Assembly: GCA_043228905.1 (NCBI GenBank)
Contig: JBHGNT010000021.1
Location: 13,082,001 to 13,146,000, forward strand
Length of the DNA: 64,000 nt
Source of the DNA: Azolla caroliniana
Taxonomy: Eukaryota; Plantae; Polypodiophyta
Direction of reading: 5' to 3'
The notes beneath the pieces were generated by a model, which searched no databases, was not told the origin of the DNA, and was given only the letters and a program-made list of their open reading frames with translations. How positions within the stretch are numbered: the first letter of the stretch is position 1; each line of letters begins with the position of its first letter. Both the position numbers and the translations under genes were made by a program. Of the stretch, positions 13,780-49,664 are shown piece by piece.

Positions 13780-13933
13780 GGATATTTGCGATGAAATGTG
13801 GTGACCATGTCCGCAGCATTGGAAAGATTTGCAGCAAGTTCCCAACTTCGATTGTTGGGGGTATAGCCTAGCCAATCAACCAAGTAATACAACTTGTTGC
13901 GCACGATTTTAGAATCGAGAATGGCGGCAACGT
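13780..13933 (-). pseudogene. Chromodomain of the chromovirus integrase (separated by a nested insertion)
   Basis: Removing the nested element restores PDFDVAAILDSKIVRNKLYYLVDWLGYTPNNRSWELAANL. Confidence 0.85.
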
Positions 13934-14618
13934 TGTCGCGTTGTTACGCACGTGCGTGGAGAAGGGCGGAACCACGGGGGTCTTGGACTAAGGAGAAGGG
14001 GAGAAGGAATAGGACTTCGGAATGGAGCTTAGCACAAGAAGAGAAAGAATGAACAAGAGGAAGATGGAGGCCAAATGCTCAACAAGATATATTAGAACCG
14101 AAAACCGATTACAAAATGGCGGCCGCGTAGGCCGCACCAAACGACTATGATAAACCCGAAACCCTAATCCGACGAAGAAGAAAAGAAACCCTAAACCTAA
14201 CGCTCGTCCTATGTGGTATACCTTTCGCACTCAAAATAGGCAAACCCCACAATGGTGCTCTTCCTCTCCCTTTATAGCACAAGGAGGGAAGACTGTTACA
14301 TAAAGGTGCTACAAAATATCCCCTTTCAATCAATGGGGATATTTCCCTTGATTTTAGGGGAGGTGGGAAGGATGGGTCTTAACTCCCACCTCTACACGAA
14401 CTACTATGTACCTATCTCTCTCTCTCACGTGGATGTGCGCGCAAAAGCACATCACCTTTACACTTTACAAATCCTAAGGTGCATTTCTAGCACCACACTT
14501 ATCACTATCGACAAATAGAAATACAACATCTTGATGTGCAACGTTGCACATCGCGGGTTTGCTTACTTCGCTCGGTTTTCCGCCTATGGACGAAAATCTT
14601 CACGACATCCGCCCCCAC

Positions 14619-17600
14619 CTAACCGCACATCCACCGGTATGTGCCAAAAGGGGAACAAAACGCGAGATTTTCGGCCAAGGCGGCCAACCGAGCCCTTGAC
14701 AACCTCGTGGGCTTGCCCGGCTTAGTCTTCCACTTCGAGCAAGTCCACCCCGTCCACACGAACCACCGTCGCCTTCCGGCCCACCATCTCCGCCGAATGG
14801 TCTCGAACCGTCGGCTCCATCCGATCCGCCACACTTGACGACGTTCGCCGAGTCGTTGCCTCCACCCGATCCGCCACGTCCACCGTGTTTCCTCGAACCA
14901 CCGTCTACATCCGGACCGCCGTTTCCGATGCCCGCGCTTTCTTCCCCGATCGGTCCTCCCGAACGCCGTTGCCGACCCTTTGTCCGCCTCGCATATTCTC
15001 CGGATCCGCCTTTTTCGTGCCGCGCACCTCGTCGTGCCGACTCTTCTCGCTCCGCGCTTGCCTTCCGTAGGCTTTCCCCGTACGTCGGTGTCGTCCTCCG
15101 AATGCGTGCTCGTGCTTCGGTCCTTCGATGACCCCATCACGCATTTTTTGCCTTCCCTTTGCTTGCCGTGCTCTCTCGCCGTAGAGCATACCATCGTTCC
15201 CGTGCTCGTTGCTTGGCCCTCATGCGGCCGCATTGCACGTTTCGCATTCCGCTCCTCTTCGCGTACCCTTTCGGAAAGGTACCTTTCTTCCCCGACCTCC
15301 GTTTCGCTCGGAGGAACACCCTCTTGGCCCTCTTGGCCCGCTCGACCGCACACATCCTTCGTGATGTCGTGTTCGTTCTTTTGGGCGCATACATCTTCGT
15401 TCTCCGCGACCTCCCGTATGCCTCTCTCGGTGCCTTCATCCGTTGTGGCCTTCGTCCCCTCGCCGCCACCGTCCGCCACTCTTGGTCTCACGTCGGCACT
15501 CGCGCCGACCGCCGGAGTCTCTATAGCCGGTGTGGAGGATCCCTCTCGGGCCTTATCTTCGTGGCCGCCGGTCTTAGCCTCTCCGTAGGCCACCTCTTCC
15601 CACCAATCTTCCCTAGCATCGTGCCAGGTCTTGTCGTCGCCGCCTTCCTCCTCGTATTCGCCTCTCGAAGGCGTGATCCGACCGTCATCTTCGGTCGCTC
15701 GATGTGGCTCCTTCGTAGGCATGCTTGTGTCTTGGCCCTCCATCGGCCGTATTGCATGCATCTCGTCTCGCTCTTCCGCCGTAGACCCGACCTCCGTGTC
15801 GGTCTTCTCCTCCTTTGTCGCCGTAGCCCGTTCCGACACGGGCTCGCCGTCTTGGACCCACCCGTCCACCATCTCGTACCGGATATCCGTTCCGGTAACC
15901 TCGTACGCTCCGGCCTCCGACTCCTCGCCGCCACCCGCCGTTTCTCCGGTCTTATGTTGATCCGCAACCGCCGTAGTCTCTAGAGTGGGTATGGAGGGTC
16001 TCGTTTGTTTCCGTTTTTCCCCCGAACCATGGTCGTCGTGCCCGGTTAGCCTCCATCTCGCGCTTACCGGCTCCCATCGTAACCGTAACCGGCCAATCGG
16101 TCTCGCCGGCTTCCTTCGGTTTGGGCCCGGTTCGCCGGCCCTTACTCTCTTCTTCTTCCGTGCCGTATTCCGGTCGGGTCGGTTCCCGACTCTCTCCTCG
16201 TTTCCGCTCCGGTCCTCTCCGTCGGACCCACCGTATACACCCATTCCGGGCCCCGCATACTCGTCTTCGTATGCGCTCTCTCCGGGCCTCACCTCCTCAC
16301 GGTCACCGCCCATCTCTCCGGTCTCACGTTGGCATTCGAGCACAACCGCCGAAGTCTCCGGCCCCGGTGTCAAGGGGTCTAGCCTCCGTCCGCTCCAATC
16401 TTCCTTCTCGTTTCCGTTGCCCGCCTTGCCGCCGTCATCTCCCGTCGCACTAAGCCTCATGCCGGCACTCGGGCCGGCCATTGGAGCCTCTAGGATTGGT
16501 GTGGGTAAGGACCCGGCACCGCCGCTTGTTGTCTCCGTAGCCGCTTTCGTTCGGATGTCGTTGTCCGCGGCTCCCCCATCTCCGATTCCGTAAGCCTCTA
16601 GTATGCTTGCCACCACCTCTTCTTCGCCGTTCTCCGCGTCATTTTGTTTGCCCGCCTTGCTGCCGCCACCGCCCGTCGTTCTAGGTCTCGTGCCGGCACT
16701 CGGGCCGACCGCCGAAGCCTCTAGGGCCGGTGTGTGGAAGGTCGCGGCACCACCGCTCGCCTCCTCTCCGCTCGATGTTTTGGGCCGCCGTGCCCCGAAT
16801 CTTCCGCCCACTTTCGAAGTGGCGCTCTCCGCTTTGTAGTCACCGGCCTCATCCTTGGCCGTCCATTCGCCGCAAGACGAGAGGGTTTCTCGCTCCGCAC
16901 CCTCTCCCATGTCGTCGTCGTTTCGGTTGCCCGCCTTGCCGCCGCCACCGTCCGTCACTCTAGGCCTCTCGCCGGCTCTCGGGCCAGGTGCCGGAGTCTC
17001 TAGGACCGGTGTGTGGAAGGTCGCGACACCACCACTCCTCTCGTCCGTAGCCACCTCCATTCGGACATCGTCGTCCGTGGCTACCCCGTCTTCGGTTTCG
17101 CAAGCATCGAGTATGCTTGCCGCCGCCTCTTCTTCGTCGGTCTCGTCCTCATCTCGGTTGTCCGCCTTGCCGCCGCCACCGCCCGTAGCTCTAGGTCTCG
17201 TGCCGGCACTCGGGCCGACCGCCGAAGCCTCTAGGGCCGGTGTGTGGAAGGTCGCGACACCGACGCTCGTCTCCTCCCGACTCGATGTTTCGGGCCACCG
17301 TGTCCCGAAACCGTAGTTACCGGCCTCCATGGCCGTCGCTTCACCGCAAGGCAAGAGGGTCGCTTGCTCCGCACCCTCTCCCTTGTCACCGTCGTACGCT
17401 CTTCCGGCCTCGATTTTCGCAGTCACGATCTCGCACGCCTCCCATACCAACGCCTCGAAGTCGTACTCCTCCGGTTGGTCGTGCATCGAGCTCTCTTCCG
17501 GCGGTGGTGTGTAGCCGCCCACCGCGCTCTCTTCTCAGCCGCTCGCGGGTCGTGTTGTGGCCGACCACCTCTTATCATGTTGTCGGCACACCCGTTCTAC

Positions 17601-18176
17601 TTCGGGCCACTCCTCGGTGAGACCATGCGCCCCATAATCGTCTTGAAGCTCGAACATGATGTCCATCCTCTCCTCATGATGGACCGTCTTCAAAAATAGG
17701 AGGACTTTGTCCGCCCCCACCGATCTCCGTTCCCACTCCGAGAGTTGAGAGAAACGACGCTCGAACTCTCGGAATGCCTCCATTGCGCCCCGATGGTGCC
17801 TCGCCGACGCCACCCACCGATCGAACTCTCGCCGACCTCTTACCTCCGATTCCGCGCACCCGTATGCCTCCATTAGAGCCCCTTCAAAGGACTCCCACGA
17901 TTCGTGAGCTTCTTGGAGCTCCTTGACCTCCTCGTACTTTGATGCGGCCGCCGCTCGACGAAAGAACTCTAGCCTCGTCGCTTCGTCCACGCCCATCCCC
18001 CTCATTTCCGCATCGTAGGCTCTCAAAAATTTTGGGACCTCCTTCCCATCGAACCGGCCAACTAGACGGACCACCCTTTCGACCGCTTGTTGAGCCGCCT
18101 CTCGCCTCGCCCTCTTCCGTCCGGCGTCCATCAAGATCTTTGTCATCATCTCCTCGAAGTCGAAGCCTTCTTCCAT
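14619..18176 (-). CDS. Gag-like N-terminus (213 aa), one in-frame TGA, then a 967-aa disordered repeat region (~1185 codons in one frame)
   Basis: VGRFDGKEVPKFLRAY and DKVLLFLK resemble the Gag of the autonomous-type relatives. ORFs 17535..18176 and 14619..17522 share a frame (GGC TGA GAA GAG AGC GCG GTG). The frame ends at the PPT. Confidence 0.7.
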
Positions 18177-18196
18177 CTCTTTCTCCCTTGCCGCCC

Positions 18197-18214
18197 TTCA
18201 CGTCGGGTTCACCA
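18197..18214 (-). promoter_or_regulatory. Primer-binding site complementary to the plant tRNA-Trp 3' end
   Basis: TGGTGAACCCGACGTGAA on minus, 4 nt from the LTR. Variants at 33646-33663 (-) and 37720-37737 (+). Confidence 0.85.
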
Positions 18215-18894
18215 AAGATGTCGCGTTGTTACACGCGTGCGTGGAGAAGGGCGGAACCACGGGGGTCTTGGACTAAGGAGAAGGGGAGAAGGAATAGGAC
18301 TTCGGAATGGAGCTTAGCACAAGAAGAGAAAGAATGAACAAGAGGAAGATGGAGGCCAAATGCTCAACAAGATATATTAGAACCGAAAACCGATTACAAA
18401 ATGGCGGCCGCGTAGGCCGCACCAAACGACTATGATAAACCCGAAACCCTAATCCGACGAAGAAGAAAAGAAACCCTAAACCTAACGCTCGTCCTATGTG
18501 GTATACCTTTCGCACTCAAAATAGGCAACCCCCACAATGGTGCTCTTCCTCTCCCTTTATAGCACAAGGAGGGAAGACCGTTACATAAAGGTGCTACAAA
18601 ATATCCCCTTTCAATCAATGGGGATATTTCCCTTGATTTTAGGGGAGGTGGGAAGGATGGGTCTTAACTCCCACCTCTACACGAACTACTATGTACCTAC
18701 CTCTCTCTCACGTGGATGTGCGCGCAAAAGCACATCACCTTTACACTTTACAAATCCTAAGGTGCATTTCTAGCACCACACTTATCACTATCGACAAATA
18801 GAAATACAACATCTTGATGTGCAACGTTGCACATCGCGGGTTTGCTTACTTCGCTCGGTTTTCCGCCTATGGACGAAAATCTTCACGACAACGT

Positions 18895-21800
18895 CAAAGT
18901 CGGGTCCTTCCAAGAACTCAACTGGTGGTGGAGGAGTTGTAATACGGCCCGGAATTGAACTGCTGGTGTAAGGTTCTAAAAGGGATACATGGAAAGACCG
19001 GATGGAGGCGTATGTGCGGAGGGAGGCCAAGACGATATGCAACATCACTTATCTTACCAGTGATCATGTACGGGCCAAAACATTGGTAATCCAATTTACC
19101 ACAAGGCCGAGTAGTCTTGATGTTGTGTTGGAGAAGCCATACATGATCCCCAACACAGAATTTTTTGGAGGAATCTAGGCAATGACGATCCGCAAGCCTC
19201 TTGTCTGTAACTTGTGCATCATGTAAATTGTGAAGAATAGCAGCGTGAATTTCTTGGAGGCGACTAAGACGATCCGCAATAGCAGGGTTGGTAGGCACTT
19301 GTGGATGCGCATTCATTGTCCACCGAGGATGGTGGCCCGTATTTGCGAAAAATGGGGAATAACCCATAGAAGAATGGACCGAGTTATTGTAAGCGAATTC
19401 AGCCAAGTGCAGAAAATCAACCCAATCATCTTGTTGGTAGTTGATGAAACAACGAAGATATTGCTCCAATGTCTGGTTGGTACGCTCAGTTTGGCCGTTA
19501 GTCTCAGGATGATAGCCTGAAGAAAGCTTAACCGAAATTCAGAGAAGTTTGAGTATATGCTTCCAAAACTTTGAAATAAATTGTGGACCCCGATCACTAA
19601 TAATACCATCCAGAAGACCATGGTGCTTAAATACCTCCCGCATAACTAGATCGACCACCTCTTGACTAGCAATAAACTTCGTACATGGCACGAAATGTGC
19701 CATTTTGGTAAGTCGATCAACCACTGTGAGAATTGCATCATAACCTTTTGAAATTGGGAGATCAGTAATGAAATCCAAGGATTTTCCAGAATGGGAAGTG
19801 GTTGTAGTAAGCCATAGGATCGATGTCGAGGACTCTTTGATCGACAACAGGTATCACAGCTGCGAACATACTCCTCAACAAAACAACGAAGGCGAGGCCA
19901 CCAATATTGTCAAGAAACTAATTCTAGAGTTTTGCGAACTCCAAAATGTCCAGCCATTGGTGAGTCATGGCAATGTTGTAGAACTTGTAGTCGCGGGGGA
20001 CCATCAGGAACATACAATAGGTTTTGTTGAAATAGAAAACCACCATGCCAATAGAACAAACGATAGTCCTGCTGAGGGTTTTTCGATTGCGAACTAGAAG
20101 CACGATCTAGGACAATATGATCCAAAACCTGCTTGGCTAATTCATCAATGGCCATATGATCTCGAATGGAATCAAGAAGAGTGCAATCTTCAAGTGTTGT
20201 TATGGCATTAACTACCATTAATCGTAGGCGATTAGGACCCAAAAGGATTTGTTTTTGATGCTCAAATGCAGGTTCCCTTGGACGAAGTTCCATATAAGAG
20301 CGTCGAGAAAGCGCATTTGCTTTACCTTGCTGCATCCCAGGGCGATATATGATTACAAAGTCAAAGTGAGTCAAAAATTGCGCCCACCGGGCTTGTCGCC
20401 AACTCAGGACTCGAGCATTTTGGAAATATGTCAAGTTCTTATGATCATTGTAGACAATGATCTGCTGAGAAGAGCCTTCTAGAAAATGTCACCATTGTAG
20501 AAAAGAGTCCACGATTGCAAGAAGTTCTTTGTCATGGATCTCGTGGTTGATCTCTGCAGTTTCAAACTTTTGGGAATGAAAGGTGATAGGATGTAGCTCT
20601 CCGTCATCTCCCGTCTGCGACAAGACACTTCCTAGTGCAAAATTGGATGCATCAGCTTCAAGGATGAAGCATTTTGTTGGATCGACATGTGCTAAGATTG
20701 GTGCCGTTGTAAACGCCTGTATTAAACTTTCAAATGTCTCGGCTACATCCGAACTCCAAATGAATGGTTGATTTTTGTGTGTGAGTTGAGTGAGCGGAAG
20801 CACGACCTTAGAATAATTTCTAATAAATTTCCGATAAAAGTTTGCAAACCCGAGAAAACATTGCACGTCGCGCACTGAAAGGGGAGTCTGCCACTCTAGA
20901 ATTGCTTGAACCTTCATGGCGTCCATAGATACCATCTGAGGATACAACGTACCCCAAAAATCCCACTTGATTCTGGCTGAAACTACACTTCTCTAATTTT
21001 GCATCGAGACCATATTCTCGTAGCCGACGTAGTACCTGACGAACATGTTCATCATGTTCCTCTTGGGTCTTCGAATTGATCAAAATGTCATCTAGGTAAA
21101 CTATAGTGAAGATATCGAGAAAATCTCGAAAAATATCATTCACCATATGCTGGAAAACTACATGTGCATTCATGAGACCGAATGGCGTCACAGTATACTC
21201 GAAATGTCCATCCCTCAAACGAATCCGAACTAGATTATATGCACCACGAAGGTCCAACTTTGTGAAATATTTTGCTCCACTAAGACGTTCCAAAAGATTC
21301 GGGATTAATGGTAAAGCATATCGATTCCGGATGGTCACTTTGTTTAGCCCTCGATAATCCACGACCAACCTAAGAGACCCATTCTTTTTCTTAACGAAGA
21401 AGATAGGTGCACCAGCAGAGGATCTAGAATGCCAAATGAATCCATTTGCGAGATTCTCGTTGATATATTCCCGCACAGTCTCTAGCTCTACAGGGGAAAG
21501 ATTATAAATTGGGCCCCATGGAGGTTCTTTCCCCGGTTGCAAGTCAATAGGGCAGTCGTATGGCCGATGCTCCGGCAATGTATTGGCCTTCACCTTATCA
21601 AAGACATCTGAAAACTCTTTGTATTTATCTGGTAGTTGAATGTCCCCTTCATGCAAGGTGGATGACGGAGTTGCCACTATTGCGAAGATAAACATATCCT
21701 TAGTCCCCCCTTCCTCACGTAATTGACATAGAGAGATGGTAGATAACTTATGGGGTCTAGTATCAAATGTCGGAGATTTGAGGGATGTGACCTTTGTTCT

Positions 21801-22235
21801 TTCTTCTTGGGTCTCCTCAATTATTCTTTTGATCCAATCAATCTTCGAGTTATGGAGTTCAAACCAAGGGAGACCTAGAACTATTGGGTGTTCTGGACTA
21901 CGAATAATGTTGAAGGAGATTATGCTTGCCAAATTGCGAAGAACTATATGAATTGGCTCGGACCCCTCGACTATATCACCTGATGCTATGGGACGGCCAT
22001 CAATGACTCCTACGGCTACTGGGTTCGGGAGCTTATTCAAGAGGATGTTTTGTGACAATCCAAACTCATGATCCATGAAACAAGAGTTGGCTCCAGAATT
22101 TAGGAGGGCCGAGGCTAGGACTCGATGACATGTAGATGTGGTAAGCTCAACTTGCGTAGAAAAAACTCTACTCACTTGACTTGATAAAATGGAACCACGA
22201 CTAGGGACTAACTCTATATATCTAGGATGGTTCAA
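18895..22235 (-). pseudogene. pol: Chromovirus Pol (protease, RT, RNase H, integrase), frameshifted
   Basis: [83 protein letters not shown], spread over several frames. Confidence 0.92.
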
Positions 22236-22261
22236 CCAAATGGCTCCTATTTTGGCCGGAC

Positions 22262-23386
22262 TTACTCTTTTAACACATCCTCTAATTGACTCAAGACATC
22301 GAATCTATTCTCATGGCATGGACTATTAGGCTTATTGACGTTATTAGAAGTAACAATGGAGCTCAAAGTAGGAATATCATGTGCACTTACTTGGTATACT
22401 TGACGTCTAAGTTTATGTGGACAATTCACGGCGATATGTCCTGGACCACCGCAATATAGACATAGGCGGTGCGCCCGACGTCGTTGTTTCTCAACATCGG
22501 ATAAAGGCCCTCGACGTTGTGTTGTCTCTATTTCCATCGGAGTTGGGCCATCCCTTGTAATGGGCCTGGAAACTTGTGGGGGCATTGTGACTACGGAAGC
22601 ATACGTTTGTTCTGGTTGGCGGCGTAACATTTGTTGGCGCTCAGAACGTCGCTCAAAAAGACGATTATCACATCGCACAGCTCGACTAATGGCCTCTGTT
22701 AGAGACTTCGGATCTTCATGGAAAGTAAGTAGAAGATCTTTGACGTCATTACGCAAACCTTGAAGGAATTGATCCATTAAAGCCGCCTCATCCCAAGGGA
22801 TATCACATGCCAAAAGACGAAAATCAGCTGCATACGCTGACGCAGGACGATCTCCTTGTCGGAGTCTTCGAATCTTGTTTATCGCCGTCCTAGTGCTGTC
22901 GGTGTCTCCAAAACTAGCCTGAAACTCCTTAACAAATGCCTCAAAATCGTCTAGCAATGGTGATTTCTTCTCAAGAAGTGGTGCAAACCATGCTAATGTT
23001 GTACCACATAACAAGGTTCCCACTAATCCCACACGAGCCGTGGCAGTTGGGTACCGATTGGGATGTAACTGAATAACCAAACGGACTTGATTCAAAAAAC
23101 CTCGAAATAAAGACCTCATACCATCAAATTTGGCAGGGAGACTAATCTTTGGTTCTCGAGGGGAGTTTTGAGCCCCCAACGCTTGTTCCCGTAATGACAA
23201 TATAGTAGCCTCGAGTTGGTGAACCCATTGTGATAATTCTTCAACTTGTTGAGCTCTTTCGGTACTCACTTGTTGTAGGTCGCCCAATAGCCTTTGATTT
23301 TCATGCTCTAATGCCACAAATTTATTCGTGAGCATGTTGAGCTCAGAGAGAACACGGATGTATTCTTGTTTGCTCACGGACTCCAT
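22262..23386 (-). CDS. gag: Chromovirus Gag (374 aa, intact) with CCHC zinc knuckle
   Basis: PKISLPAKFDG, IRRLRQG...YAADFR, GPTPMEI, CLYCGGPGHIAVNCP. Confidence 0.9.
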   Translation of the reverse strand: MESVSKQEYIRVLSELNMLTNKFVALEHENQRLLGDLQQVSTERAQQVEELSQWVHQLEATILSLREQALGAQNSPREPKISLPAKFDGMRSLFRGFLNQVRLVIQLHPNRYPTATARVGLVGTLLCGTTLAWFAPLLEKKSPLLDDFEAFVKEFQASFGDTDSTRTAINKIRRLRQGDRPASAYAADFRLLACDIPWDEAALMDQFLQGLRNDVKDLLLTFHEDPKSLTEAISRAVRCDNRLFERRSERQQMLRRQPEQTYASVVTMPPQVSRPITRDGPTPMEIETTQRRGPLSDVEKQRRRAHRLCLYCGGPGHIAVNCPHKLRRQVYQVSAHDIPTLSSIVTSNNVNKPNSPCHENRFDVLSQLEDVLKE

Positions 23387-25489
23387 GATGAACGAGGGGA
23401 GAGGAGAAGAAATAAGAGAACTTGTGGAAGAGGGAGAAAATGAAAAAAGAAAATTGGTTCAAACTATCAAGACAAAGAGAAAAAGAGAAGAAAGAGAGAG
23501 AAAAAAGGGAAAGAGATATATTGATGAGGCAGAAAGAGAGAATTGAAAAGGAAGTATTATATTGCGATATAAGATGGAGTACACAGAGTAAGCAATAGGG
23601 AGTTATAGGATGGCGTTTAACCAATTTGGTTTTCGGATGGTTGATAACTCCTTATTTATAACTCTCTATAGAGTAATCTAGAACACTCTAGAATATTATG
23701 GGGTAATCTAGTAATCTAGAAGGTTTATAGCGTCTTCTAGAAGGTTCAAGCATATAGAACACTCTAGAATACTCTAGGACATTCTAGAATATAAAGTAAT
23801 TCAGAATATGCTTATAATATTAGATTATATATTCTAAAAACAATACACATACACTTGTTATTACAATGGTTAAGGATTTGACATGCGTATAACAAGGTTG
23901 TGGGTTCAATTTTCCAAACAAAATGTGAGTGTCATCATAACAGAAGGACTGACCGTATACCGTCTTGCAATGAATGATATCGTCGTAGCGTAATACTTAG
24001 TGGGATACCTCTCGTAATCTAGTAGCGTATAAGGGAGATGGCTACAACCGAGCTCCTTAGACAGTGGACTAGCAACCACGTTGTTACTCATGCCTACGTT
24101 CTTACGACTGCGCTACTGCGCTGCACAGTAGATTAACCACGGATGCACACACAAATCAGAGAAGATAGAACTCTATTAAGATACGCCTTTTACATTCAAA
24201 ATTATATGCTACCTCTATCAGAGGATTTCTTCTCTTTATATATGCAGGGTCTTTTAGCCGTTCACGCTTCCCACGTGAACCGTTTACATGTGTTACAATA
24301 TTACTATATTCTATATTTCTGCACTCTTGTCCGTCGATTACTATTCCGACGGACAACACCTGTGAAGCCATCTGACTCTGGCGGTTGCTGCAAGACCTCT
24401 AGAGTTGAAGTACTGACTCCAATCCCAATCTACTACGACATCTTGACCAAGCCACTTGAATCGGACAAGTTGCAACATTTTTTAGAGATGCTTGGGTTGC
24501 AGCGTCTTGGCATGCCGCACTTGAGGTGGAGAACCGGAACAGGAACCAGCGGCAGAACAAGTAAAGGCACCGGAGAAGTAGCCAGCAAAGAAGAGGAAAA
24601 TATCAAAATAGGGGGGGGGGGGGGGAGAAGAAAAATGGATCGGAGTCGACTAAAGTCGTCCGCACATCCAAAAAAGTCGGAACGAGCAATGACGACGGTA
24701 GAGTCAAGAAGGACAGAGCCGAACGGAACAAGAAGGCCAAGACCCAGACATGGTTTGATGTGGTAAAGGGCCTAGAGGATGAGGAAGAATTGGAGGCAAC
24801 CAATTTAGACAGGAGTTGGAATGAATCGGAGGCAATTGATTCAGAAGCGGTGTTTGATTCTGAGGAGCCGAATCAACTGAAGGCCAAACGGACATGAAGG
24901 TAGTAGAAGTCGATGCTGACACGGAGGAACCGATGGGTTGAGAACCGCCAAAGTCACAACAACGAAGGAGCTTAGATGGGCCTTATGAGAAGACAAGCCG
25001 ACCGAGAAGGTCAAGGTGCGTGGAACCGGACGGGTCATGGAAAGCGGGACCGGATGGGTCGAGGAGCGCGAGCGAGGTGTGAAGATGCCAAGAGGAGCCG
25101 GAGGGAAGGACTAGCAGACACTGACACCATGATCCAACCTCCAATTGAGCTTGAGGGGGAGTGTTGAGCGAGCAAGCTCAACATGATCCGGATTAGTTGA
25201 ATAAGCTAAGAGCCGGATCAGTGTCCAGATCTGAGTGTAACCGATAGGCCGTTAGAGGCCTACGATCCTAGCTTAGTATGTAGGCATATTTTTAGGAGTC
25301 AGTATCAGTCTCTTTGTACGAGCATTGAAGTACTTGCCAGTACCTCTATCAGTCCTTTCGAAGGACTTGCATAAAAGTGCTCACAGAACACATTGTATGT
25401 ACATAGTGATATTTTTTGAATTGGAGTTTAGGGTGTTTTGCTCTCTTTGTCTCTCCTGCGTGTACTCTCTATGTATCTTGAAGTTTAAG

Positions 25490-36309: not shown

Positions 36310-36313
36310 ACGT

Positions 36314-37041
36314 CTGAATGTATTTACGAATATGTTCTTATTTGCTGGTTCATACTGTATCCGGCCGGACTCCTTCTCAATCCATCCGATCCGGTATACG
36401 AATACCTTCTGGATCCATCCGGACCAGTTCCTTCCTTCAGCTCATCCAATCCGGCATATCCGGAGGGACATGTTTCCCAACAATCTCCCCCTTCACTCTA
36501 GCATGGGATGTTTCATTAGTTCGATCCATCTCCGGCACACGTCCAACTTGTCTGTTGAAATCACCTTGGTCAGCATGTCCGACTTGTCCTCTATATGGAT
36601 CTTCATCAGCAAAAACTCTTTATCTTCTACCTTTTCCTGGAGCCAATGATATCTCCTCTGGATGTGCTTGGTCTGGGAGTGGTATACAACGTTCTTCGCG
36701 AGATGGATGGCACTTTGACTCATAGTAGAGCTGGAATTCCTCCTGTCGGTTCCCTAATTCTCCGATGAAGTCCTTCATCTAGATTACCTCTTTGCCGGCT
36801 TCCACAATTACCATATACTCCGCTTTCGTTGTCGATAATGCAACGAACTTTTGCAGCCTCGACTGCCACAATACAGCTCCCCATGCATAAGTCATGACAT
36901 ATCCGGATGTAGAATGGATGGCATCAGGATCAGCCAACATATCCGAATATGTGAATCCTTCAAGTTGGGGTTTTCCTAAGCCGAATCAAAGGCACATACT
37001 CGAGGCTCCTTTCAAGTACCGAAGTATCCACTTGACCGCGG
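36314..37041 (-). mobile_element. Copia relic C (RT end/RNase H, PPT, 3' LTR part; the LTR continues at 29347-29389)
   Basis: SQSAIHLAKNVVYHSQTKHIQRRYHW, WQSRLQKFVALSTTKAEY. PPT aagggggagat abuts the LTR start tgttggg at 36482. Confidence 0.85.
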
Positions 37042-39316
37042 TGTCATGGGGAAACCCGACTACAAGAAGAAAAGGAGACCAAAGGCGTGTGAACTGCCGC
37101 GTGCACAGATGCACACAATTGTAAATAATCTAAGACTAGGCTAGGTCGGTGTAAGGAACAAGACATTGTTAGGACATTTAATATAGGATTAAATCGAACA
37201 AATCTCTGTCCAAAGCAATAGAGAATAAAAGCATGATGTAACAGCCCCTTCCCCTCTGAGGGCCTATAAAAGGAGGGAGAGAGGACTGAGTTGGGGATTG
37301 GGGGGTTTTAGGGAGAATGAAGTGTCGTCAGACTGGGAACCAAGCACCCGTTCTCTGTTTTGCTCTCTTAGGTCGGACGCCTCTGCTCGCATAGGAAGCC
37401 CGTGTGCTCCCGACAAAGGCTCCACATTGTATTTTGGTGACTAGAGTGTGTGTTGTTTGTTGTGATCGTGGCTCAGCTCCTAGTTGAGCCGGTTGTAGTT
37501 TCTTTGCCTTCTAACTAATTGTTGATATCTGTTTGTTGTTCATCTAGTGTGTCGCTCTGATCCCGGCCGAGTCGGTAGTGTCGTGTGCCTCTCGATACTC
37601 AACGCCTTACGCACCTTCTGTCTGTCTTGTTCTCCTTATCCTTCTTAGCTCTTCGGTCCAAGGCCCTCGTGGTCTTGCCAAGCATCACACACGTACCCGT
37701 AGAATACCACGACATTATTTGGTGAACCCGATGTGAACAAGGTGGCAGAGGAGTCTGAAGAATGAGGGGAAGCGAGCTTGCGGAAGCCATGGCATTAGTT
37801 GTTGACCGGCTAGTGAGCGTCTGTGAGGGCACAGGTACCCTTGACAGGGCCCTTGACACGTTGGTGCTCCTCGAGGAGTTCGAGAAATGGTTTGCTTGGC
37901 TCTCGGCGTTGGACAAGACCAAGATCGACACGAGTTGTGTCTTGTTATTCATCAAGTCTGTGGACGCGCAGGATTGGGAGAAGGTGGGTCCCCTTTTGGA
38001 GATGGATCATGGGATCATGGCCGACTGGGCCATGGTTAAAAGGGTCTGCAGCCATTTCGACAAATGGTGTGAGTGGAGAGAAGAGGGCCCGTCGGCAGCA
38101 GGACCGGCAGCGGGGAGACAACATGAAGAACCAATTCAGGCTCGAACGGAAGAGGCGCGAAGGTGGATTGAGTCCGGCGCGGTCTCGACTGACGTGGTCA
38201 AGGGACCATTCGGAGGCGCGGCCCTAGAAGAGCTCACTAAGATGGTACAGGACCTACAGATCCCGCAGGCCTCCGGTCGACCAACGATGTATGTGGTGCA
38301 ACGCGGTTGGTCACACCCGAAGAGATTGCGCGGATTTTACCGAGGCACTCAAAAGCAACGTGGTGTACCTACAGAACGGGGATTTGCACGCAAGTGAGAC
38401 TAGGAAAGCCTTGGGATGGAATACCAGTCAGGGTGGAATGAAACGATTGATGGAAGAAGCCACGGTGCGACACACTGAAGCCATCCACTATTAGGCATCA
38501 GCTGGGATCCGGGTCGGAAGCGATGGCCCTCGGTGCTAGAAGGCCTCTCCGGAGTGCGACTAAGGAAGGAGGAAGCAGACCACGCGGAGAAGTGGGTCCG
38601 GAAAGTTACAGGGTGGACCGATCCAGTCGAGGAGAAGACCGGTTTCGTGGAAGCGGCGTGCCAGAACTACGAAGTTCTGGTAGAAGACAAGCGAGCGGGA
38701 AAGAGTGGAGGAGTCGAACCCTCTAGCCGATACAAAACTCAAAGCATACCGAAGAAGAATGACACCGTTAATTCCGGCGTATATGACAGAATGAAGCAGG
38801 TCGGTTACTGGATGGGCACAGAAATAGAGAGAACTATAAAATTGTGGAAAGTCCTCGACAATAGGGTGAAGCTAACGCTAAGGGAGGTGCTAGGAATCGC
38901 CAAGAAGGAGTTCCACGACTCCATCATAGACTTAGTTAAGCGTAAGTGGCTCGCGACAAAGCCGGAACCGGAAAGACCCATAGAAGTGCGAACGACGTAC
39001 TTGGAAGATGCGGCCATAGAGGACGAGTTGGCAGAAAGCCACTACTCGAAGCCACACTAGGCAAGGGCATCGACGGAAACTCCCGTTCGGATCGGGAGCG
39101 TTCAGGAACTGGTGGTGGCGTTGATAGACCATGGATCCGAAATCAACCTGATGTTCATGGACTTCTACAAGCAGGGAAAATGGTCGATTAACACCAAGCA
39201 CGGGTGGAAGATACGTGCGGCTACGCGTGCTACGGAGGAACTACACGGGATGTGCCCGAACGTGCGAGTGAAGATTGGGGATGTCGAGATTGATCAACAC
39301 TTTTTTGTGCATTGGC
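37042..39316 (+). mobile_element. Truncated tRNA-Trp-primed gypsy (5' LTR 37042-37714, PBS, gag, protease relic)
   Basis: TGTC...GACA LTR, PBS tggtgaacccgatgtgaa, knuckle CMWCNAVGHTRRDC, protease ALIDHGSEINLM. Truncated after DQHFFV. Confidence 0.88.
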
Positions 39317-41856
39317 TATGATCCTCACCCGATTGGGTGGATAAACCAACAAGCAATAACCTAGATTACAATTCTTCACCCAACTGGGTGGATAGAAAAA
39401 CTAGCAAAAAAATGGAAACAAGAAAAACACAAAATGAAGAAACCTGATGCAAGTGGACAGGATAAGTGTTGTTCAATTGTGGTTCTCTTCTAGCACGAAC
39501 AACCCCTCGCAAGTCTCTGTCTCCAATTTGGTAGAACACTCTCCCTCTTGCTTTCACTCTTTCGTTTTCTATTTTTCTTTCTCTATTTTTCTGTTTTTCT
39601 CTTTGTTTTCTGTTTTGCTCTATGTTCTCAAAAATTAGATCCTGCTCTGTTTCCTTCTTCTCTTTTTATGTTTTTCTCCTTGTAGTTCAACTTCTATATA
39701 CCTGTGTTCACACACATACACACACACACCAAAAAAACATACAAAAGAAAAAAGGGTATACATATATACATATATATAATTATAATTATAAATAATTAAA
39801 ACTTTTCTTAATTTTGTCCCTAAGCCAATTTGGCACTTAGCCGACTCCATGTTGTGGGCTCCACTTGAGTGGACAAGCCCCAACAATTCTCCCCCTCCAT
39901 CTCAAGTTCGGGGCACATGTAGGTTTGCCTTGTAGACTTCAAGCTTCTCCAAAGCTTTCTATTTCTCCCCTATTTAAGAACATCACCTAATCATGTGAAG
40001 ATCATCTTCATCTCATAGACCTCACCTCTTCCACCTCTAGTGGAGATGCTGAAACGTCATCTATCTAGTCACCTACAATTTGATGATCATGATGCTACCC
40101 ATCATCATCATCATCATTAGTTGCATGATCAGTCGTATCATCATACTCCTCCACATCTCCCCCGTAACCTTGGGTGTCTAGTGTAGGAGTTGGATATTTG
40201 ATGACTGAAAACTAGGGGTGAAATTTGGCATCTCATTTGGGTCCTTAGGTAATACTACACCCTTGTTTCTAATGACCTTCTTCTCTACTAGGTCATATAG
40301 TCTATGGCCGGATTCCTCATGACCATATCCTAGAAAATATGCATGGTTTACATCAAGCTTGGATCTTTCATCTTTCGGACGTGAACATTGGCCCTACACC
40401 TACAGTCTAACACTCTCAAGTGTTTGTATGACACTTCCTTACCTGTCCACACCCTCTCGGATACATCATCATCCAAAGGGAAGGAGTGATGGAGGCTGAT
40501 TCATGAGGTCAACTACAGTCCTCATTGTTTCACTCCAAAAGGATTTAGGAAATTTTGAGTGTGATAGCATGTACCTTATCCACTCACAAATTGTCCTACT
40601 CATCCTCTCAACCACACCATTGTGCTGAGGTGTTTTCTAAACACTCCTCTCAAGCCTGATACCATGCATATGACCATATTGCTCAAATTCTCCCCTATAT
40701 TCCACGCCATTATTCGCATGGATACATTTCAACTTGCATTAAATAGAGGGAATTTTGTTTTAGACATCTTGCTATGATTAGGGAGTCTTTGGTGAATTTC
40801 CATTTTCCTTCACCAAAGTAATTTTCATATCCCTCATCATCAAGCTTACCAGTGGAGATGATATTCAACGGAATATCTTGTGCATGCCTTACATCCCTCA
40901 ATACGAGTTTACAACCCATATCCGAGACTAAGACTACATTCCCTATGCCAACAACCTGTATCATATTGTGGTTGGCCATTTTGACTTTACCAAAGTCACC
41001 ACTGGTATATGACACAAACATCTCCCGAAATGGGGTGATGTGATACGAGGCTCCCGAGTCAATGACCCAATCAGTTTGTTGACATGCTAAACTATCACAA
41101 GAATCATCTCAAACAATAATAACATCGCCATCACATGTGGCAGTTATAGGGTCATTTCTCTTATCGTTAGTGGTTCCATTCTTTTGGTCCCTCTTCTTCT
41201 TCCTACAATCTCTTTCGTAGTGATTTGAACCACCACAATAACGACATGAGAAATCTTTCTTGAAGACTTTCCTACTTCTAGATTTTGACCTCCCCTCAAC
41301 ATTATTTATGTGATATGGTGGACCCCGAGTATGGCTTCTTCCTCTATTGGGGTTGTTTTCTATGAACAAGGCTTCATGGTCATTGTTGAACTCGCTCCTT
41401 TCGTCGTGCTTCTTCATGTAGAAGTTCGACTTAAGCATGTCCAATGTTAGCTTTTTTTGTTGCGTTGCGGTCCCAAGCGTCACAACAAGGGTTTCCTAGC
41501 TATCTAGGAGAGAGCCAAACAATAACAAGGTCAACACCTCATTTGCTAGAGGTAAATCTAGAGAGACAGTTTGACTTATTAGTCCTTGAAACATGTTTAG
41601 ATGCTCTACCATACTAGAGCCATTTTGATATCTAAGTCTTACAGTTTCCTAAACACAAAGACTCTATTAAGGCATTTTTGGTCTGAAACATAGTTTCGAT
41701 TTTCCCCCATAACTCATGTGCTTTGGTTCCATCACCAAAATTGTTATATAGACTCATGTCTATAAAACAACGTATGTATGATGTTGTTTTTCAGATACAT
41801 TGCTTCCCAAGTTAATGCATCTATGTTCTCGGGTTTGCTTATATCATGTAATACGG

Positions 41857-44800
41857 TGTCGTGAAAATCCGTCACCATGTGTGGATCGTGAGGCGAAACC
41901 GTCGGGGTTATGGACGGGAAGGAAATAGGGCTCACACACACAACACAAGGAAGGCTTACACAAACAAGGCACGAGTATTCGAACGTGTTTGTGAAAAGGA
42001 GAGGTGCATGTGCAAGCCCGAACGCTCCCTTGTTACAGGACACGCGAACACACAACCAAGGTTTACACACAGGAGATACAATTTCAAACGCCTTTGTGAA
42101 AGGAGATGTTAGAGGTTATGACCTAAGTAAGCATATGATAAGGATAAAAGATAGATAGATAAAAAGGAGAGAGAGAAAGAAGGGTGCCGATCCACCCGAC
42201 CACCCCCGAGCGAAGGGATCGAGAAGGAATGGAGCCTCAATCGGCATCCCATACCACCGTCGTCGCGTCGAGTCATACATGGTGCTAGCGCGCTCACTAC
42301 AAGAGTTGACCCACCACGAAATAGAGTCTCGACGTAGTCAAGATATGATGAAATGAGGGTAGCTAGGCCTCATATTTATAGCAATACCCAAGGCCCCCAG
42401 GCAAGTTCACACTTGGCCTAATGGGTTGTCTCAATCCCAAGGATTAAAAGTAATCATCCCCTTCTTTACACTCTCATTTAACCCTCACACTTATCCACGT
42501 GTATAGAATACTACAGTAAATTCTCACAGCGGGATATTATATGGTCATGCCCGTAACATGAGAGGTGCATGGGCAAGCCTGAACGCTCTCTTGCCACAAG
42601 TTGCATGAAAACACAAGCAAGATTTACACTAACACGCAAGAAACGAAAGTTTGAATGCCTTTGTGAAAGGAGAGGTGCATGGGCAAGCCCGAAACGCTCC
42701 CTTGTCACAAGACACACAAACAGATAAGCATAAATGACAATAACATACAAGACATGTAAGTTTGAATGCCTTTGGGAAAGGAGAGGTGCATGGGCAAGCC
42801 CGAAACGCTCCCTTGTCACAAGACACACAAACAAATAAGCACAAATGACAATAACATATAAGACACGTAGGTGAAACCAAACATTAGTTTATTGCAATAT
42901 AATAGATTCTTTTATAAAATAATAATCAATTTTACAACAGGTTTGATATGAATATGAGAGATAATTTATAAAGGAAGGGGGAAGATAGGTGGAGGAAAGA
43001 AGAGAATAGAATATAGAAGAAGGTGATTCTTTGTTGATGATGCCTCTCTATGTTGTTGATCCTTCTTCTTTTGCCTTCCAATTGAGTAGAGCTTCCACTG
43101 TCGTGTTGTTTTGCTTTCGCATAGGAAATAAGGCAGGACCGCGAGAGCCCTGAACCGAGGAGCAAGAGAAAGAAGAGGGGTGGGAGGGGGGGGAGAAGTG
43201 CGCACTCGTGGGCTGGTTAGGCCTACTTACAATCGATAGCGCTTGCCAGTTGAATGAACCACTAACGCGTATACCGACTAAACAAGATGCATGCTCGCGT
43301 AAAGGGAGACTCACAGAAACACAGAGAGATGGAAACAAGAGATTTGATTCCAATATCAGTAAAGGTTTCAGTGTTAGCAAGATTACAACCGGCTAGCCGG
43401 CGATAGACCCAACCTAGACGATCACATGGTTGCGGTCGTCTTGTTCGGCAATGCACAACCCTCCACCTGATTTGTCAAGTCCTCTCGCACAAGCACTAGG
43501 TATCGCATCTGCCCTACCCCCATCGGCATCGTCACTAAGTCCACCATCCACTTGAAGTGGATGGTCGGTGAGTAGGTCGGGTGCAGCTCGTCCCGATGTC
43601 GGATCACGGAGTGCACTTGGCAGCTCTCGCACATTGTTATGAACTGGTGCACGTCCCGGTACAGCCCCGACCACCAATACTTCTCCTTCAGCCTTTCGAA
43701 TGTGGCCCATGTCCCGTGGTGTCCGGCCCAAGGACTCTTGTGATACACCGTCAGCAACGCCTCTTGCTCTTCCTTCCCTACCACTACGCGGAGTGGAACA
43801 CCGCCTCGCTTCTTTGAGTGCTTCCATATGTTCCTGTCTCGTAGGAAAAATCAGTACACCTTCTTCCGTATCCGGTTAGCTTCATCTTTCGTCCATGTTG
43901 CGTCCGGCGTCATCGTCTTTAAGAACCTATCGATCTGGAGCCACTCCCCGTCGTACTCACCTTCGTTGAACTCGTTGAGTGCTAGGGTGCTCCTTGCCCT
44001 CGTTGTCACGTAGGCTGACTTGAAGAAGTCCACGCCGACTTCTTCGTCCTTTGAAACCATGTCGTCCTCGTCACTGTACCGTGCTCTAGAAAGCATGTCA
44101 GCCATGGTGTTGTCTTTCCCGAAAATGTGCCGTATTTCCGGATTCAGGGACTTGATGTACGCGATCCACCTGAGCATCGCCAAGTCTGGCGTCGCGCATC
44201 CGGAAACCATACCAAGGATCGTTAGGCAGTTTGTCTCGATTATTACCTCCATCCCGATCAAGTAGTCTTTATCGGCCTTGACTACCGAAACAATACCCCA
44301 GAGTTCGCGTTTAACTTGGGTGTATCCTCGTTGCCGCTCACTCAGCACTTTCGCTCCGAACCGGATGGGGAGCCTCATTCCACTCTCGTCCTCCTGGTTG
44401 ACCACCCATCCTATCCTGGTCGGGCTCATGTCTACCGTAACGTAAATTGGGATGTCCTTGCCGTAAACCACTTTCCGGAGTGCCAGTGCCGCGGTTAGCG
44501 CCTCCTTCAATCTACGAACTGACTCCACATGCTCCTCGCCCCACTCGAATTTATGCCCCTTCTTCAACAACCCGTAGAGTGGCTCTGTGACGTGCGCATA
44601 ATGCGGAATCCAAATATGGTAGAACACGCACGCGCCTAGGAACCTCCTTACCTCCGTGACCGACTTGCATTCTTCCTTCATTACGGAGATGGCCTCTACC
44701 TTCGCGAGAGACGGTTTCCGGCCATAAGGCCCGCACAAGTGTCTGAACACTAGGATCTCTGGTTTCCTGAAAGCGGACTTCTCTCCGGAGAAGGTGATTC

Positions 44801-47800
44801 GTGCATCCTCTAGCCTTTGCAGCACCCTCTTGCAATCGCTGATGTGGTCCACAATGAATCTCCGGCAACCGTTCGGGCCAACTGATTCATCCTTGTTTTC
44901 CACCAGGCACTCCTTTATCGGGATGTCATCCAAGAATGGCATGGTAATGTCCGGGATGCAATCCCTCAGCACTTATTCATTGCATTCACCATGTGTGCCA
45001 CCAAGTTGGTCCCTCCTTGCGGCAGGGTACACATCCACACTAAGTCGAGAGGAGTTCGTATCGTCGTAATGTCCCTGCTCTCCACGGCTAGTTGGAACTG
45101 ATCATACCCTGAGTACAAATCCCCAACCGAATAGATCGACTTTCCGGCAAAGGCCTCCTTGAACTCGTCAATGGTCGGCCCGATTCTTGCATTCCGAATG
45201 GTCACCTTGTTGACTAGCTGCAGGTCCTGAATAAAGCACAACGTGTCGTTCTTCTTTGGCACGGTAAACCACTTATTCGAATATGGGGCGCTCGATGGCT
45301 CGAGGATGCCCATCTCCACCTTCTGCTTCAACAACTCCATCAACTTCGGGATGTGAGCTCTGGGTACCGGAATCGGCTTGCGGTACTGTGAAGATAACCA
45401 TTGGCTCAACGATCATCGGGTCTACGCACCCGATCTCCTGTGATGAGAATGAGAAGGCCTTCCCGTGCCTCCCGAGCATCCTCCGAAACCGGTCCTCCTC
45501 CGCTGGGCAATAGAAAGCCACCCCCACCAACCTTGAGCTCCCGTAGCATTTTGTCAGTGAACCGGTGTCCTATGCTGGCCGGATTCCGCAAACTTGGGTC
45601 CGACGCGACCCCTTTCATCCATTCCTCACTGCCCTCCGGTAAGGGAGCCGCGATTGGCCTCACCTTCCGGTCCACAGTCTTGTACTTCGTTTCCACTCGG
45701 GTTGTCCGATCCAACTCGACCCTTTTCCCGAAATCAGCAATGGCTTCATACATCCTTTCTGAACAAACCGGAATCATCCGGTCTTCATTGAGACCTTCTT
45801 CAAGCACCTTCCCTAGGTCTCCCAAGGTTTCATCGAAGGAGACCACCTCCACGGCGCTGCCAATCTCCTTGTCAGGGCCAAGGACTCTGCACGCCCTGAG
45901 ACGTTCCTGTGGTCGCTTCTTTTCCCCGCCACTAATGCCGGTTATCGTACAACCTCCGTTGTCAGAGAGCCAAAATTTCCTACCTATGGTACACGTGTGG
46001 GGTTACTCCGAGGTGTCCGGAATATCGCGGCCCCACGCCTTGATAGCCCTCTCTAAAAAATCCCCTCGGTTATCGCCGTCGAGGGTCTCGCGGTTACGCT
46101 CATGGTTCAGACGCAATGTTAGAAATTGGAAGGAGTTTCGCCCATCTTGGCTCTTCACGCGTGCGTACGCCAAACCATTATCCAACACCTTTGTCTCCAT
46201 GCGTGCTGCCGTAATATACGGTTCACCGAGTATCATCGGGTGCGAGGATGTCTCCTACACGAAGAAGTGTTGGTCAATTTCAACATCGCCGATTTTCACA
46301 CGTACATTCGGGCAGGCCCTATGAAGCTCCTCCGTGGCCGCATATCTTCCACCCGTGCTTGGTGTTGATCGGCCACTTTCCCTACTTATAGAAGTCCATA
46401 GACATCAAGTTGATCTCCGACCCGTGGTCGGTCAGCGCCAGTACCGGCTCCTGGACGTCCCCGACCTGAACGGGGGTTTCTATAGTAGCCCTTACCCAGT
46501 GCAACTTTGAATAGTGGCTCTCCGCCAACTCGTCTTCCAAGGCCACGTGCTCCAGGTGTGTCGTTCGCACCTCCACCGGCTTCTCCGGCTCCGGCTCCGT
46601 CGAGAGCCGTTTACGCTTCACCAAGTCCACGATGGAATCGTGGAACTCCTTCAAGGCGATCCCGAGCACCTCCCTCAGTGACAACTCCACCTTGTTGTCG
46701 AGAATCCGCTCCTCGAGGACCTTCCACATGTCCGTCATCCTTTCTATTTCGGTGTCTAGCCGGTAACTGGTTGGCTTTGCTCTGTCTGCCATGCCAAGAT
46801 TGCCAACATCATTCCTCTTTGGCCCGAATCGGGTCTCGTACTGATTCAGGGGTGCGGTTCCACCGGACTTCCCTGCCCTCTTGTCCTCCACTAGAACCTC
46901 GTAGTTTTGGCACGCGGCCTCCATATAGCCGGTCTTCTCCTCTACCGGGTCGTCCCACCCGGTGACCTCCGACCCGTTGCTCCGCGCGGTTCGCTTCTAC
47001 CCTCTTCAGTCGAACCCTAGAGAGGCCGCCTTCTAGCACCAACGGCCAGAACCCAGAGTCTCTCGTCTTCCGACCCTCGTTGCTCCCGACTCGGATTCCG
47101 GCTTACGCCGAGTAATGGACGGCTTCTGCATGGCACGCCGCTGCTTCTTCCATCAACCTCTTCATTCCGTCGCGCCCGAAGTTCGTCTCTAGGGCTCTCC
47201 GAGTATCACCGGTGTGCACCCGCCTGTTCCACAGGTACACCACATTGCTTCTAAGTGCGTCAACAAAATCCGCGCACTCTTTTCGGGCGTGGCTGACCGC
47301 GTCGCACCACATGCACCGCTGCCCGGCTGGACGCCTCCGGTTGCGAGACTGTTCGCCGTTGTCATCTGCTTCAGCTTTCCAAAGCCGCTCCTCCAGATGG
47401 GCCCTTGACTACGCCGATCGAGGTTGAGCTGCCCATCTCAAGCCAATCCCGGGTTTCCTCATTTCGTGCCTGTGAAGGCTCATCGAACTTCCTTGCCAGG
47501 ACGGATCTCGCCGTCGACGATCCCTCGTCGCCCTACTCACATTGTTTGTCAAAACGGTCGCAGACTCTCTTCACCACGACCTAGTCGGTCATCAGCCCGT
47601 CATCCGTCTCCAGCAAGAGACCCACCTGATCTCGATCCCGCACGTCCACGGCTTTGACAAACAACAAGACATGGCTCGTGTCCATCACTGCTCTGTCCAA
47701 TGTCGAGAGCCACGCGAAGCGTTCTTCAAACTCCTGGAGAAGAGCCAACACATTCCTCCCCTTTTCGGGGGTCTCTACCCAATCCATGAAATCTCCCTTC

Positions 47801-49343
47801 GATAGCCGAAGCGCGTCATCGAGCCCATACCTTTAGAGGAGCCACCCCTCGAACTCTTCCCAGGTCCGGCATCCGGCCTTCACCTCGAGCACCTCCGCAT
47901 GAATGCCCGGTGTTGCCACTCGAGGGAATCCGGCCAGCCGGCTGTCTTCTGGGATGTCCCTCATCACCATCTCGGCTCAATAGGACTCCAAATAGTTCGT
48001 GGCATTCTTCCCACCAAACCGGCCTATTGTGTCGACAATTGCTTCAATGGCCCTGTCGAGTGTGCCCGTGCCCTCGCGAGCACTTACTATCCGATCAACT
48101 GCTGCTGCCATGGTTTCGGCAAGCTCCGATCCCCTCATCTTCGACTCCTCTGCCGCCTTGTTTCACTTAGGCCTGCTTACAATCGACAGCGCTTGTCGGC
48201 TGAATGAACCACTAACGTGTATACCAACTAAACAAGATGCACGCTCGCGTAAAGGGAGACTCACGGAAACACAGAGAGACGGAAATAGGAGATACGATTC
48301 CAATATCAGTAAAAGTTACAATGTTTGCAAGATTACAACCGGCTAGCCGGCGATAAACCCAACCCAGACAATCACACAATCGCACACACACGTAGTAGAG
48401 CCTCTGCGGGAAGCACACGGGCTTCCCTTGAAACAGAGGCAGCTGACTCAAAAACCCTGCAAAGAACAACAACAGAGTCCAGGAGAGAGCTCGGTTCCTA
48501 GTCTAACAGCACCTCGTCCTCACCAAAACGCGATCCCTTTTTAGTCTTCTCCCCTTCCCTTTTATAGGCCGCCGAGGAGGGACAGTTACATCCTGGTCAC
48601 ATCACTTTTATTCTTTGTCCCTTCGGACAGAGATCCGCTTCGATTTACTGGCCTATTAATATATTCTTCCTAGGATATGCACATCACGTCAGCCTATCAC
48701 TAGTTATGTACATAGCGTTGCTTTGAGTGCACACGCGTAAGTGCCATTTCACACGCCGAATTCCCTGATTCCACCTAAGGCCGGTTTTCTCCACGACATT
48801 GCGTTCCTTCTCCCCCCCCCCCCCCCCCACCCCCCCTCTTCTTCACTAGAATAGGCTCTTATTTATAGGTTTAGGATTGCTTGCCTTTTTCCCCAAAAAA
48901 AAACTTGTCTATATGAGTCGACTTTTCTTTTCCTCACTATTTCTGTTTTCTAGCCCCAAATTTCACATGCAAGATATTCTTGGAAAGCTCTTTGGGTTAG
49001 CTTTCTTATGCATCTTTTCTTTTCTAATTTGGACATCTGACAAGGAAATTATGAGTTTGTTTCTCTATTGTTTTCCTCATATCCACACGTGCTTCTTCTT
49101 CTTTTTCTCCCCATCTTTTTCTCCACTTTTGTCTACTTTTGAAAACCGCCTCTAACTTAATATTCTTCATTATTTATAGTAAGTTTCAATCCTTTGAACT
49201 TTTATTTATAAGGAATTATCTTTGGCAAATGAAAAATATTTTTGCTACCAATAAAGTTGACTTCACAATACTAGTTTATTTGAACTACTATTTTACTTCT
49301 TTTCGAGGGTGGTTTCACACTATGTGTTAGGAACATCACGACA
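41857..49343. mobile_element. TGTCGTG...CACGACA-bounded LTR-type insertion (solo-LTR-like or deleted element) hosting a further gypsy relic
   Basis: 4-bp TSD ACGG at 41853-41856 and 49344-49347. Removal restores Copia gag KNLWFPVLHDISKP. Internal ~107-bp repeats at ~41990-42050 and 42560-42870. Confidence 0.75.
43214..48798 (-). mobile_element. Autonomous-type gypsy relic (FLDD-type RT; same lineage as 37042-39316)
   Basis: LTR part 48167-48798 with a partial second copy at ~43214-43425. Gag IGRFGGKNATNY, CMWCDAVSH, ALTDHGSEINLM, GDLYSGYDQF..LPQGGTN..PFLDDIPIK, RNase H YTQVKRELWG, integrase HKSPWAGHHG..CESCQ. Frameshifted, with truncated integrase. Confidence 0.9.
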
Positions 49344-49664
49344 ACGGGAAACCACAAGTTCTTACATACCAACATGTCTCTCATTTTGGACTTCCATATG
49401 GGGTAGTTGGCTCCGGTCAGCTTAATCATCCCTCCTAGTGATTCATCCATATTCCAAGACTTTGCGAAGGGTATGAACCTTGGCTCTGATAACACTTGTT
49501 AGGAATATGGTACTGAATTGGGATGATTTAGACTTCCAACACAATTAACAATAAATGAAACCACTAGACAAAAATGAGAGTACACCAAAAACTTTAACAT
49601 GGAAAACCCAAAATAGGGAAAAATCACAAGAACTGTAGGTTCCAAAACAACTTTACTATGATCT

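What the first reader, a model, noticed from the sequence alone, without database searches (positions are those of the whole stretch)
13930..49347. tRNA-Trp gypsy lineage inserts at CpG-centred 4-bp target sites
Seen: independent TGTC...GACA insertions have flanks ACGT/ACGT (13930, 18891), ATGT/ACGT (29386, 36310), ACGG/ACGG (41853, 49344), one-sided GCGG (37038) and one-sided TTGC (48799; TG could be deaminated CG). Established: most plant LTR elements make 5-bp TSDs with little sequence preference. Inference: this integrase targets NCGN, possibly methylated CpG, which would direct it into silenced repeats without any chromodomain visible here (the integrase is truncated). All five insertions lie inside other transposons. 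The sample is small.
Basis: partly seen in the sequence, partly recalled or inferred. Interest (0 to 1): 0.75.

Follow-up and report, generated by a model that had tools for sequence, protein, structure and literature searches.

The report
CG-targeting moss retrotransposons, likely known Phygy
These retrotransposons insert almost only at 4-base sites centred on CG, but they are likely members of the Phygy lineage of mosses, for which this preference was published in 2019; whether the CG must be methylated is untested.

Summary
All eight flanks are at the stated coordinates. An independent sample confirms the preference: 27 of 28 distinct junctions of the same LTR end in metagenome contigs have CG at positions 2-3, against 3.5% background, and the exception is CA. 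Neumann et al. 2019 (PMC6317226) define the Physcomitrella lineage Phygy with 4-bp TSDs (100%, NCGN), a tRNA-Trp PBS (81%) and no extra domain. These elements match that set: no chromodomain or extra RNase H is listed for 120 longer relatives. One copy sits between integrase and chromodomain of a chromovirus, where Phygy nesting is already reported. Two points are not closed: tree placement with Phygy was not testable, and the Trp identity of the PBS is recalled. Small additions: the motif is tighter than NCGN (A/C-CG-G/T, 23 of 27), and the 'one-sided' TTGC copy has a left end at 43099 (CCAC). Methyl-CpG targeting is untested and not needed to explain the data.

The parts
13930..13933 (.). 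E1 left TSD ACGT
13934..18890 (-). E1: young non-autonomous Phygy-like element. 3' LTR 13934-14607, 5' LTR 18219-18890, PBS 18197-18214, PPT from 14608, gag 17538-18197, repetitive 971-aa frame, no pol
   Evidence: gag 31% identical to Riccia polyprotein P0144, E 2e-22
18891..18894 (.). E1 right TSD ACGT
13576..23942 (-). Host of E1: chromovirus (Tcn1-like, inferred); E1 lies at the start of its chromodomain (13731-13931), behind the integrase SH3
   Evidence: Pfam Chromo E 1.6e-10; SH3_Tf2-1, RVT_1 and gag hits; LTR remnants
29386..36313 (-). E2: non-autonomous Phygy-like element with three LTR copies (29390-30143, 33668-34421, 35546-36309) inside a local duplication; flanks ATGT (29386, 35542) and ACGT (36310)
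   Evidence: LTRs 96.8-97.2% identical
37038..39311 (+). E4: 5' part of a Phygy-like element. GCGG flank, LTR 37042-37714, PBS from 37720, gag to protease region; 3' part lost
41853..49347 (.). E5: unit with TGTCGTG...CACGACA ends and ACGG/ACGG TSD in a copia gag region; likely a solo LTR, interrupted by a 452-bp solo LTR (42107-42558, 5-bp GGAGA/TGAGA) and by E3
43095..48802 (-). E3: decayed gag-pol Phygy-like element 43099-48798. Flanks CCAC/TTGC; DUF4100, RT, RNase H, integrase zinc finger; integrase cut at 43427; PBS deleted

Best explanation
These are non-chromovirus Ty3/gypsy LTR retrotransposons, likely of the Phygy lineage, that insert at 4-bp sites centred on CG, likely because the integrase reads the local DNA sequence and shape rather than methylation. 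Shown: 4-bp duplication, central CG, bias to A/C-CG-G/T, and no chromodomain in longer relatives. Inferred: a 4-bp stagger needs a sharp bend at a flexible central pyrimidine-purine step, and base contacts from the integrase narrow that choice to CG. Also inferred: E1 and E2 are moved in trans, nesting follows CG density and tolerance, and TG/CA flanks arise by deamination after insertion.
For: 27 of 28 distinct junctions have central CG; 23 of these 27 are A/C-CG-G/T against 23% of background NCGN sites (P 2e-11). CG is only 15% of pyrimidine-purine steps in the flanks, so flexibility alone is not enough. The Phygy definition is 4 bp 100% (NCGN), tRNA-Trp 81%, no extra domain (PMC6317226 passages and Additional file 5). 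0 of 120 listed longer relatives carry Chromo PF00385 or RNase H PF00075/PF13456, and 0 of 8 on rescan at E 0.1. In 87 of 120 the integrase ends a median of 75 aa after the W.GP[YF] motif; the 24 tails printed end in short acidic stretches. Retroviral sites favour central YR steps, more so with short TSDs, largely independent of chromatin (PMC4422553 abstract). TSD decay follows age: 99.3% LTRs perfect, 97% one change, 90% three inferred changes. The position three residues after the second catalytic Asp is Glu or Asp in 102 of 103 aligned relatives; equating it with PFV Ala188/HIV Ser119 is recalled numbering.
Against: No Physcomitrella Phygy sequence was available, so there is no tree; named relatives are Riccia and Adiantum (38-60% identity). 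The Trp identity of the PBS is recalled (searches found no confirmation). No methylation data, so a methylation effect is not excluded. The 28 junctions come from a few metagenome assemblies and show one side only. Two solo LTRs have unmatched flanks.
Confidence: 0.75

Rival explanations
1. The integrase prefers methylated CpG at the cleavage site, which steers it into silenced repeats without a chromodomain.
For: All five window insertions are in or against other TEs. Phygy nests in Tcn1 in P. patens (PMC6911290 section 7) and is centromere-enriched in a liverwort (PMC12885004 passage). The decayed TSDs show these CGs were methylated at some time (inferred).
Against: No reader domain in the integrase C-terminus. 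Decay can follow insertion. The window is a TE cluster, so nesting is expected. 8 of 28 extra flanks were recognisable TE, 19 unclassified, and 1 lies about 65 bp behind an Alba-family ORF, possibly a retrocopy.
Confidence: 0.15
2. The elements belong to another or undescribed 4-bp, tRNA-Trp lineage (such as TatI or a Phygy sister clade) that shares the CG preference.
For: TatI also has 4-bp TSDs and a tRNA-Trp PBS. No direct Phygy reference was compared.
Against: TatI carries an extra RNase H in 100% of elements; none is listed for the relatives here. Only Phygy is listed with NCGN.
Confidence: 0.08
3. The CG enrichment is a small-sample or composition artefact.
For: Only five window insertions, in a CG-rich block.
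Against: 27 of 28 at the TSD centre against 0-3 of 28 at each of ten neighbouring offsets.
Confidence: 0.01

Closest known systems
Phygy (REXdb non-chromovirus Ty3/gypsy clade of Physcomitrium patens; Neumann et al. 2019, PMC6317226)
   Same: 4-bp TSD, NCGN, tRNA-Trp-type PBS, no chromodomain, no extra RNase H; nesting between INT and chromodomain of a chromovirus (PMC6911290).
   Different: Host species not determined here. E1 and E2 are short gag-only derivatives (E1 is 4957 bp against 7656-9968 listed). The motif in this family is narrower (A/C-CG-G/T); the passages I read give only NCGN.
TatI and Selgy (REXdb)
   Same: Non-chromovirus, 4-bp TSD; TatI also has a tRNA-Trp PBS.
   Different: TatI has an extra RNase H; Selgy uses tRNA-Ala; neither is listed with NCGN.
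Drosophila gypsy/Idefix/412 clades (PMC3276498, passages)
   Same: Ty3/gypsy integrases with 4-bp TSDs and palindromic sequence-specific targets.
   Different: Their targets are TATA, ATAT or TRYA, not CG-centred.
Prototype foamy virus intasome
   Same: Closest solved integrase (E 3e-9); central YR step and base-contact residues (PMC4422553 abstract); 4-bp stagger recalled.
   Different: Its sequence preference is weakly conserved, not a near-absolute CG.

Membership tests
Phygy | RT/RH/INT phylogeny within the P. patens non-chromovirus clade | not testable with these tools
   REXdb Additional files 1 and 3 were too large to read; no P. patens-named hit among the proteins listed
Phygy | 4-bp TSD | tested here: met
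   ACGT/ACGT and ACGG/ACGG; other host copies leave exactly four letters at the E1 site (loose ends)
Phygy | NCGN target | tested here: met
   27 of 28
Phygy | tRNA-Trp PBS | tested here: inconclusive
   Shared TGGTGA(A/G)CCCGA PBS in E1, E2, E4; Trp assignment recalled; 0 tRNA genes in 31 viral loci; 0 papers with the string
Phygy | No chromodomain and no extra RNase H | tested here: met
   Tested on longer relatives (E3's integrase is cut): 0 of 120 listed, 0 of 8 rescanned
Phygy | Length 7.7-10 kb with coding region spanning the interior | tested here: inconclusive
   No intact autonomous copy in the window; E1 4957 bp, E3 5700 bp with deletions
TatI | Extra (archaeal-type) RNase H | tested here: not met
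Chromovirus | Chromodomain after integrase | tested here: not met
   E3 RT is only 27% identical to the window's chromovirus RT

The most novel reading that the evidence does not exclude
The integrase of this lineage reads 5-methylcytosine directly in an A/C-CG-G/T site, with no chromodomain or methyl-binding domain, giving a new route to target silenced DNA that is conserved from mosses to liverworts and ferns.
Probability: 0.12. Interest if true: 0.75.

Novelty: already known. Interest (0 to 1): 0.17.

Why it matters
The preference itself is published, so the finding adds little beyond a narrower motif and more copies. It does point to an unusually sequence-specific plant integrase; I found no study of its mechanism (searches, listings only). 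If the CG had to be methylated, it would be a new way for a retrotransposon to find silenced DNA, and moss methylation mutants make that directly testable.

Tried and rejected
No whole genome is held, so there is no true genome-wide TSD census. The viral collection gave no relatives. Laying contigs on the E1 LTR and on E5 did not list the flanks of other copies usefully; no RNA holder was listed. Attempts to confirm the tRNA-Trp PBS found nothing. No P. patens-named protein appeared. The P. patens RLG2 transcript in PMC7466625's supplement was cut at 400 letters and not usable; its polymorphism tables do not say which RLG family is Phygy. A permissive alignment of the E3 and E4 LTR ends did not beat shuffles (60 vs max 60); the strict terminal alignment did. 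Two regex counts of the integrase motif were unreliable and were replaced by an alignment. PMC5221884 passages say CCG methylation in P. patens needs MET1 and CMT but gave no test of site methylation. No earlier findings matched. Rejected: chance, a 5-bp TSD, TatI, chromovirus, and E5's ends as an LTR pair.

Full report
Observation. The region 10-50 kb is a nest of LTR elements. No genome is held for this window. The host is likely a moss or other bryophyte; this is inferred from the element types and from named relatives in Riccia and Adiantum, and was not determined.

Anatomy. E1 (13934-18890, minus strand) has LTRs 667 of 672 identical, a PBS, a PPT and a gag frame but no pol, and a perfect ACGT/ACGT TSD. 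It sits at the first codons of the chromodomain of a chromovirus (Pfam Chromo E 1.6e-10; SH3, RT and gag). Contigs of other copies of that host leave the window at 13931 and continue like the right flank, leaving exactly four letters at the empty site; those shown have C rather than G at the third (6 and 9 contigs from one sample; 421 other loose ends were not shown).

E2 has three LTR copies about 97% alike inside a local duplication, so ATGT/ACGT is one event. E4 is a 5' fragment with GCGG. E3 is the only copy with RT, RNase H and part of the integrase. Its second LTR end lies at 43099, giving CCAC/TTGC, which fits a decayed CCGC (inferred). E5 (ACGG/ACGG) is one interrupted unit, likely a solo LTR, holding E3 and a 452-bp solo LTR with 5-bp flanks. 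E1-E4 are linked by gag similarity and E1, E2 and E4 by a shared PBS; E5 is linked only by its termini and TSD.

Independent test. A 26-letter pattern for the E1/E2 LTR end found 36 metagenome loci. Seven are PBS-side junctions and one duplicates another. Of the 28 left, 27 have CG at positions 2-3 and one has CA; background is 0.035 per position, and ten neighbouring offsets give 0-3 of 28. The counts are ACGT 12, ACGG 6, CCGT 4, and one each of CCGG, CCGC, TCGG, GCGG, GCGT and ACAT. A/C-CG-G/T makes up 23 of 27 against 23% of background NCGN sites (P 2e-11). Limits: one side only, a few assemblies, exact-match bias to young copies. Four looser other-end junctions read ACGT, ACAT, ATGT and AAGG, and two solo LTRs have unmatched flanks.

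Comparison with the known. Neumann et al. 2019 (PMC6317226; passages and Additional file 5 read) write that Phygy elements have an insertion preference for NCGN. They list 186 Phygy elements with 4-bp TSDs (100%, NCGN), a tRNA-Trp PBS (81%) and no extra domain. PMC6911290 (passages and section 7) reports mostly 4-bp TSDs for Phygy and six Phygy copies nested between INT and CHR of Tcn1 in P. patens, the position of E1. Phygy is also named in a liverwort genome, enriched at centromeres (PMC12885004 passages). Among the gypsy lineages in that table only Phygy combines a 4-bp TSD, tRNA-Trp and no extra RNase H. Longer relatives of E3 (best 76% identity) list no chromodomain or extra RNase H in 120 of 120 or in 8 of 8 rescanned. 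Two tests remain open: no Phygy reference was available for a tree, and the Trp assignment of the PBS is recalled (searches gave nothing).

Mechanism. The closest solved integrases are PFV and Ty3. Retroviral integrases favour flexible pyrimidine-purine steps at the site centre, more so with short TSDs, and add base contacts, largely independent of chromatin (PMC4422553 abstract). CG is only 15% of such steps in the flanks, so near-absolute CG use implies base readout as well (inferred). The residue three after the second catalytic Asp is acidic in 102 of 103 aligned relatives (17 of 120 gapped). It is a candidate contact if it corresponds to PFV Ala188 (recalled numbering, untested). The integrase tail after the SH3-like part is short (median 75 aa in 87 of 120) and acidic in the 24 printed.

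Methylation. Nothing here tests it. Nesting is expected in a TE cluster, and CG counts per 2 kb are 41-73 in the copia and chromovirus hosts against 16-38 in the 50-64 kb part. In the extra sample, 7 flanks gave TE-type Pfam hits and 1 a BLAST hit to a window LTR, 1 lies about 65 bp behind an intronless Alba-family ORF, and 19 are unclassified (up to five ORFs per 900-bp flank scanned in 27 of 28). TSD decay follows LTR divergence, which is what methylation after insertion would give.

Verdict. A real and strong target preference, already described for Phygy, to which these elements likely belong. Interest 0.17. The methyl-CpG reading remains open at about 0.12-0.15.

Noticed in passing
window 4146-6005 (-) and 7426-8262 (-): A 619-aa frame rich in Cys/His with no Pfam hit and a 278-aa frame with weak HTH hits; likely a DNA transposon of unclear type, overlapping a 20-bp tandem array from about 5880 onward.
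   Followed up: no
window 2421-3521 (+): 366-aa frame with an NIF/FCP1-like phosphatase hit (E 1e-7) next to tandem repeats.
   Followed up: no
window 14619-17534 (-): E1 keeps a 971-codon open, repetitive, acidic frame behind gag in place of pol, separated from gag by a single stop; no Pfam hit.
   Followed up: partly
window 28616-36309: Local duplication giving LTR-internal-LTR-partial internal, then a second copy of the left flank and LTR; likely unequal recombination.
   Followed up: partly
window 42107-42558: Solo LTR with 5-bp GGAGA/TGAGA flanks and very high summed contig depth, likely a high-copy family.
   Followed up: partly
L001:718-1403 (same junction in L033): Insertion about 65 bp behind an intronless Alba-family ORF, possibly a retrocopy.
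   Followed up: partly
window 46385-46996 (-): The DUF4100 region's look-alike clusters include ones whose commonest recorded phylum is Basidiomycota; a lead only that the lineage has fungal relatives.
   Followed up: no
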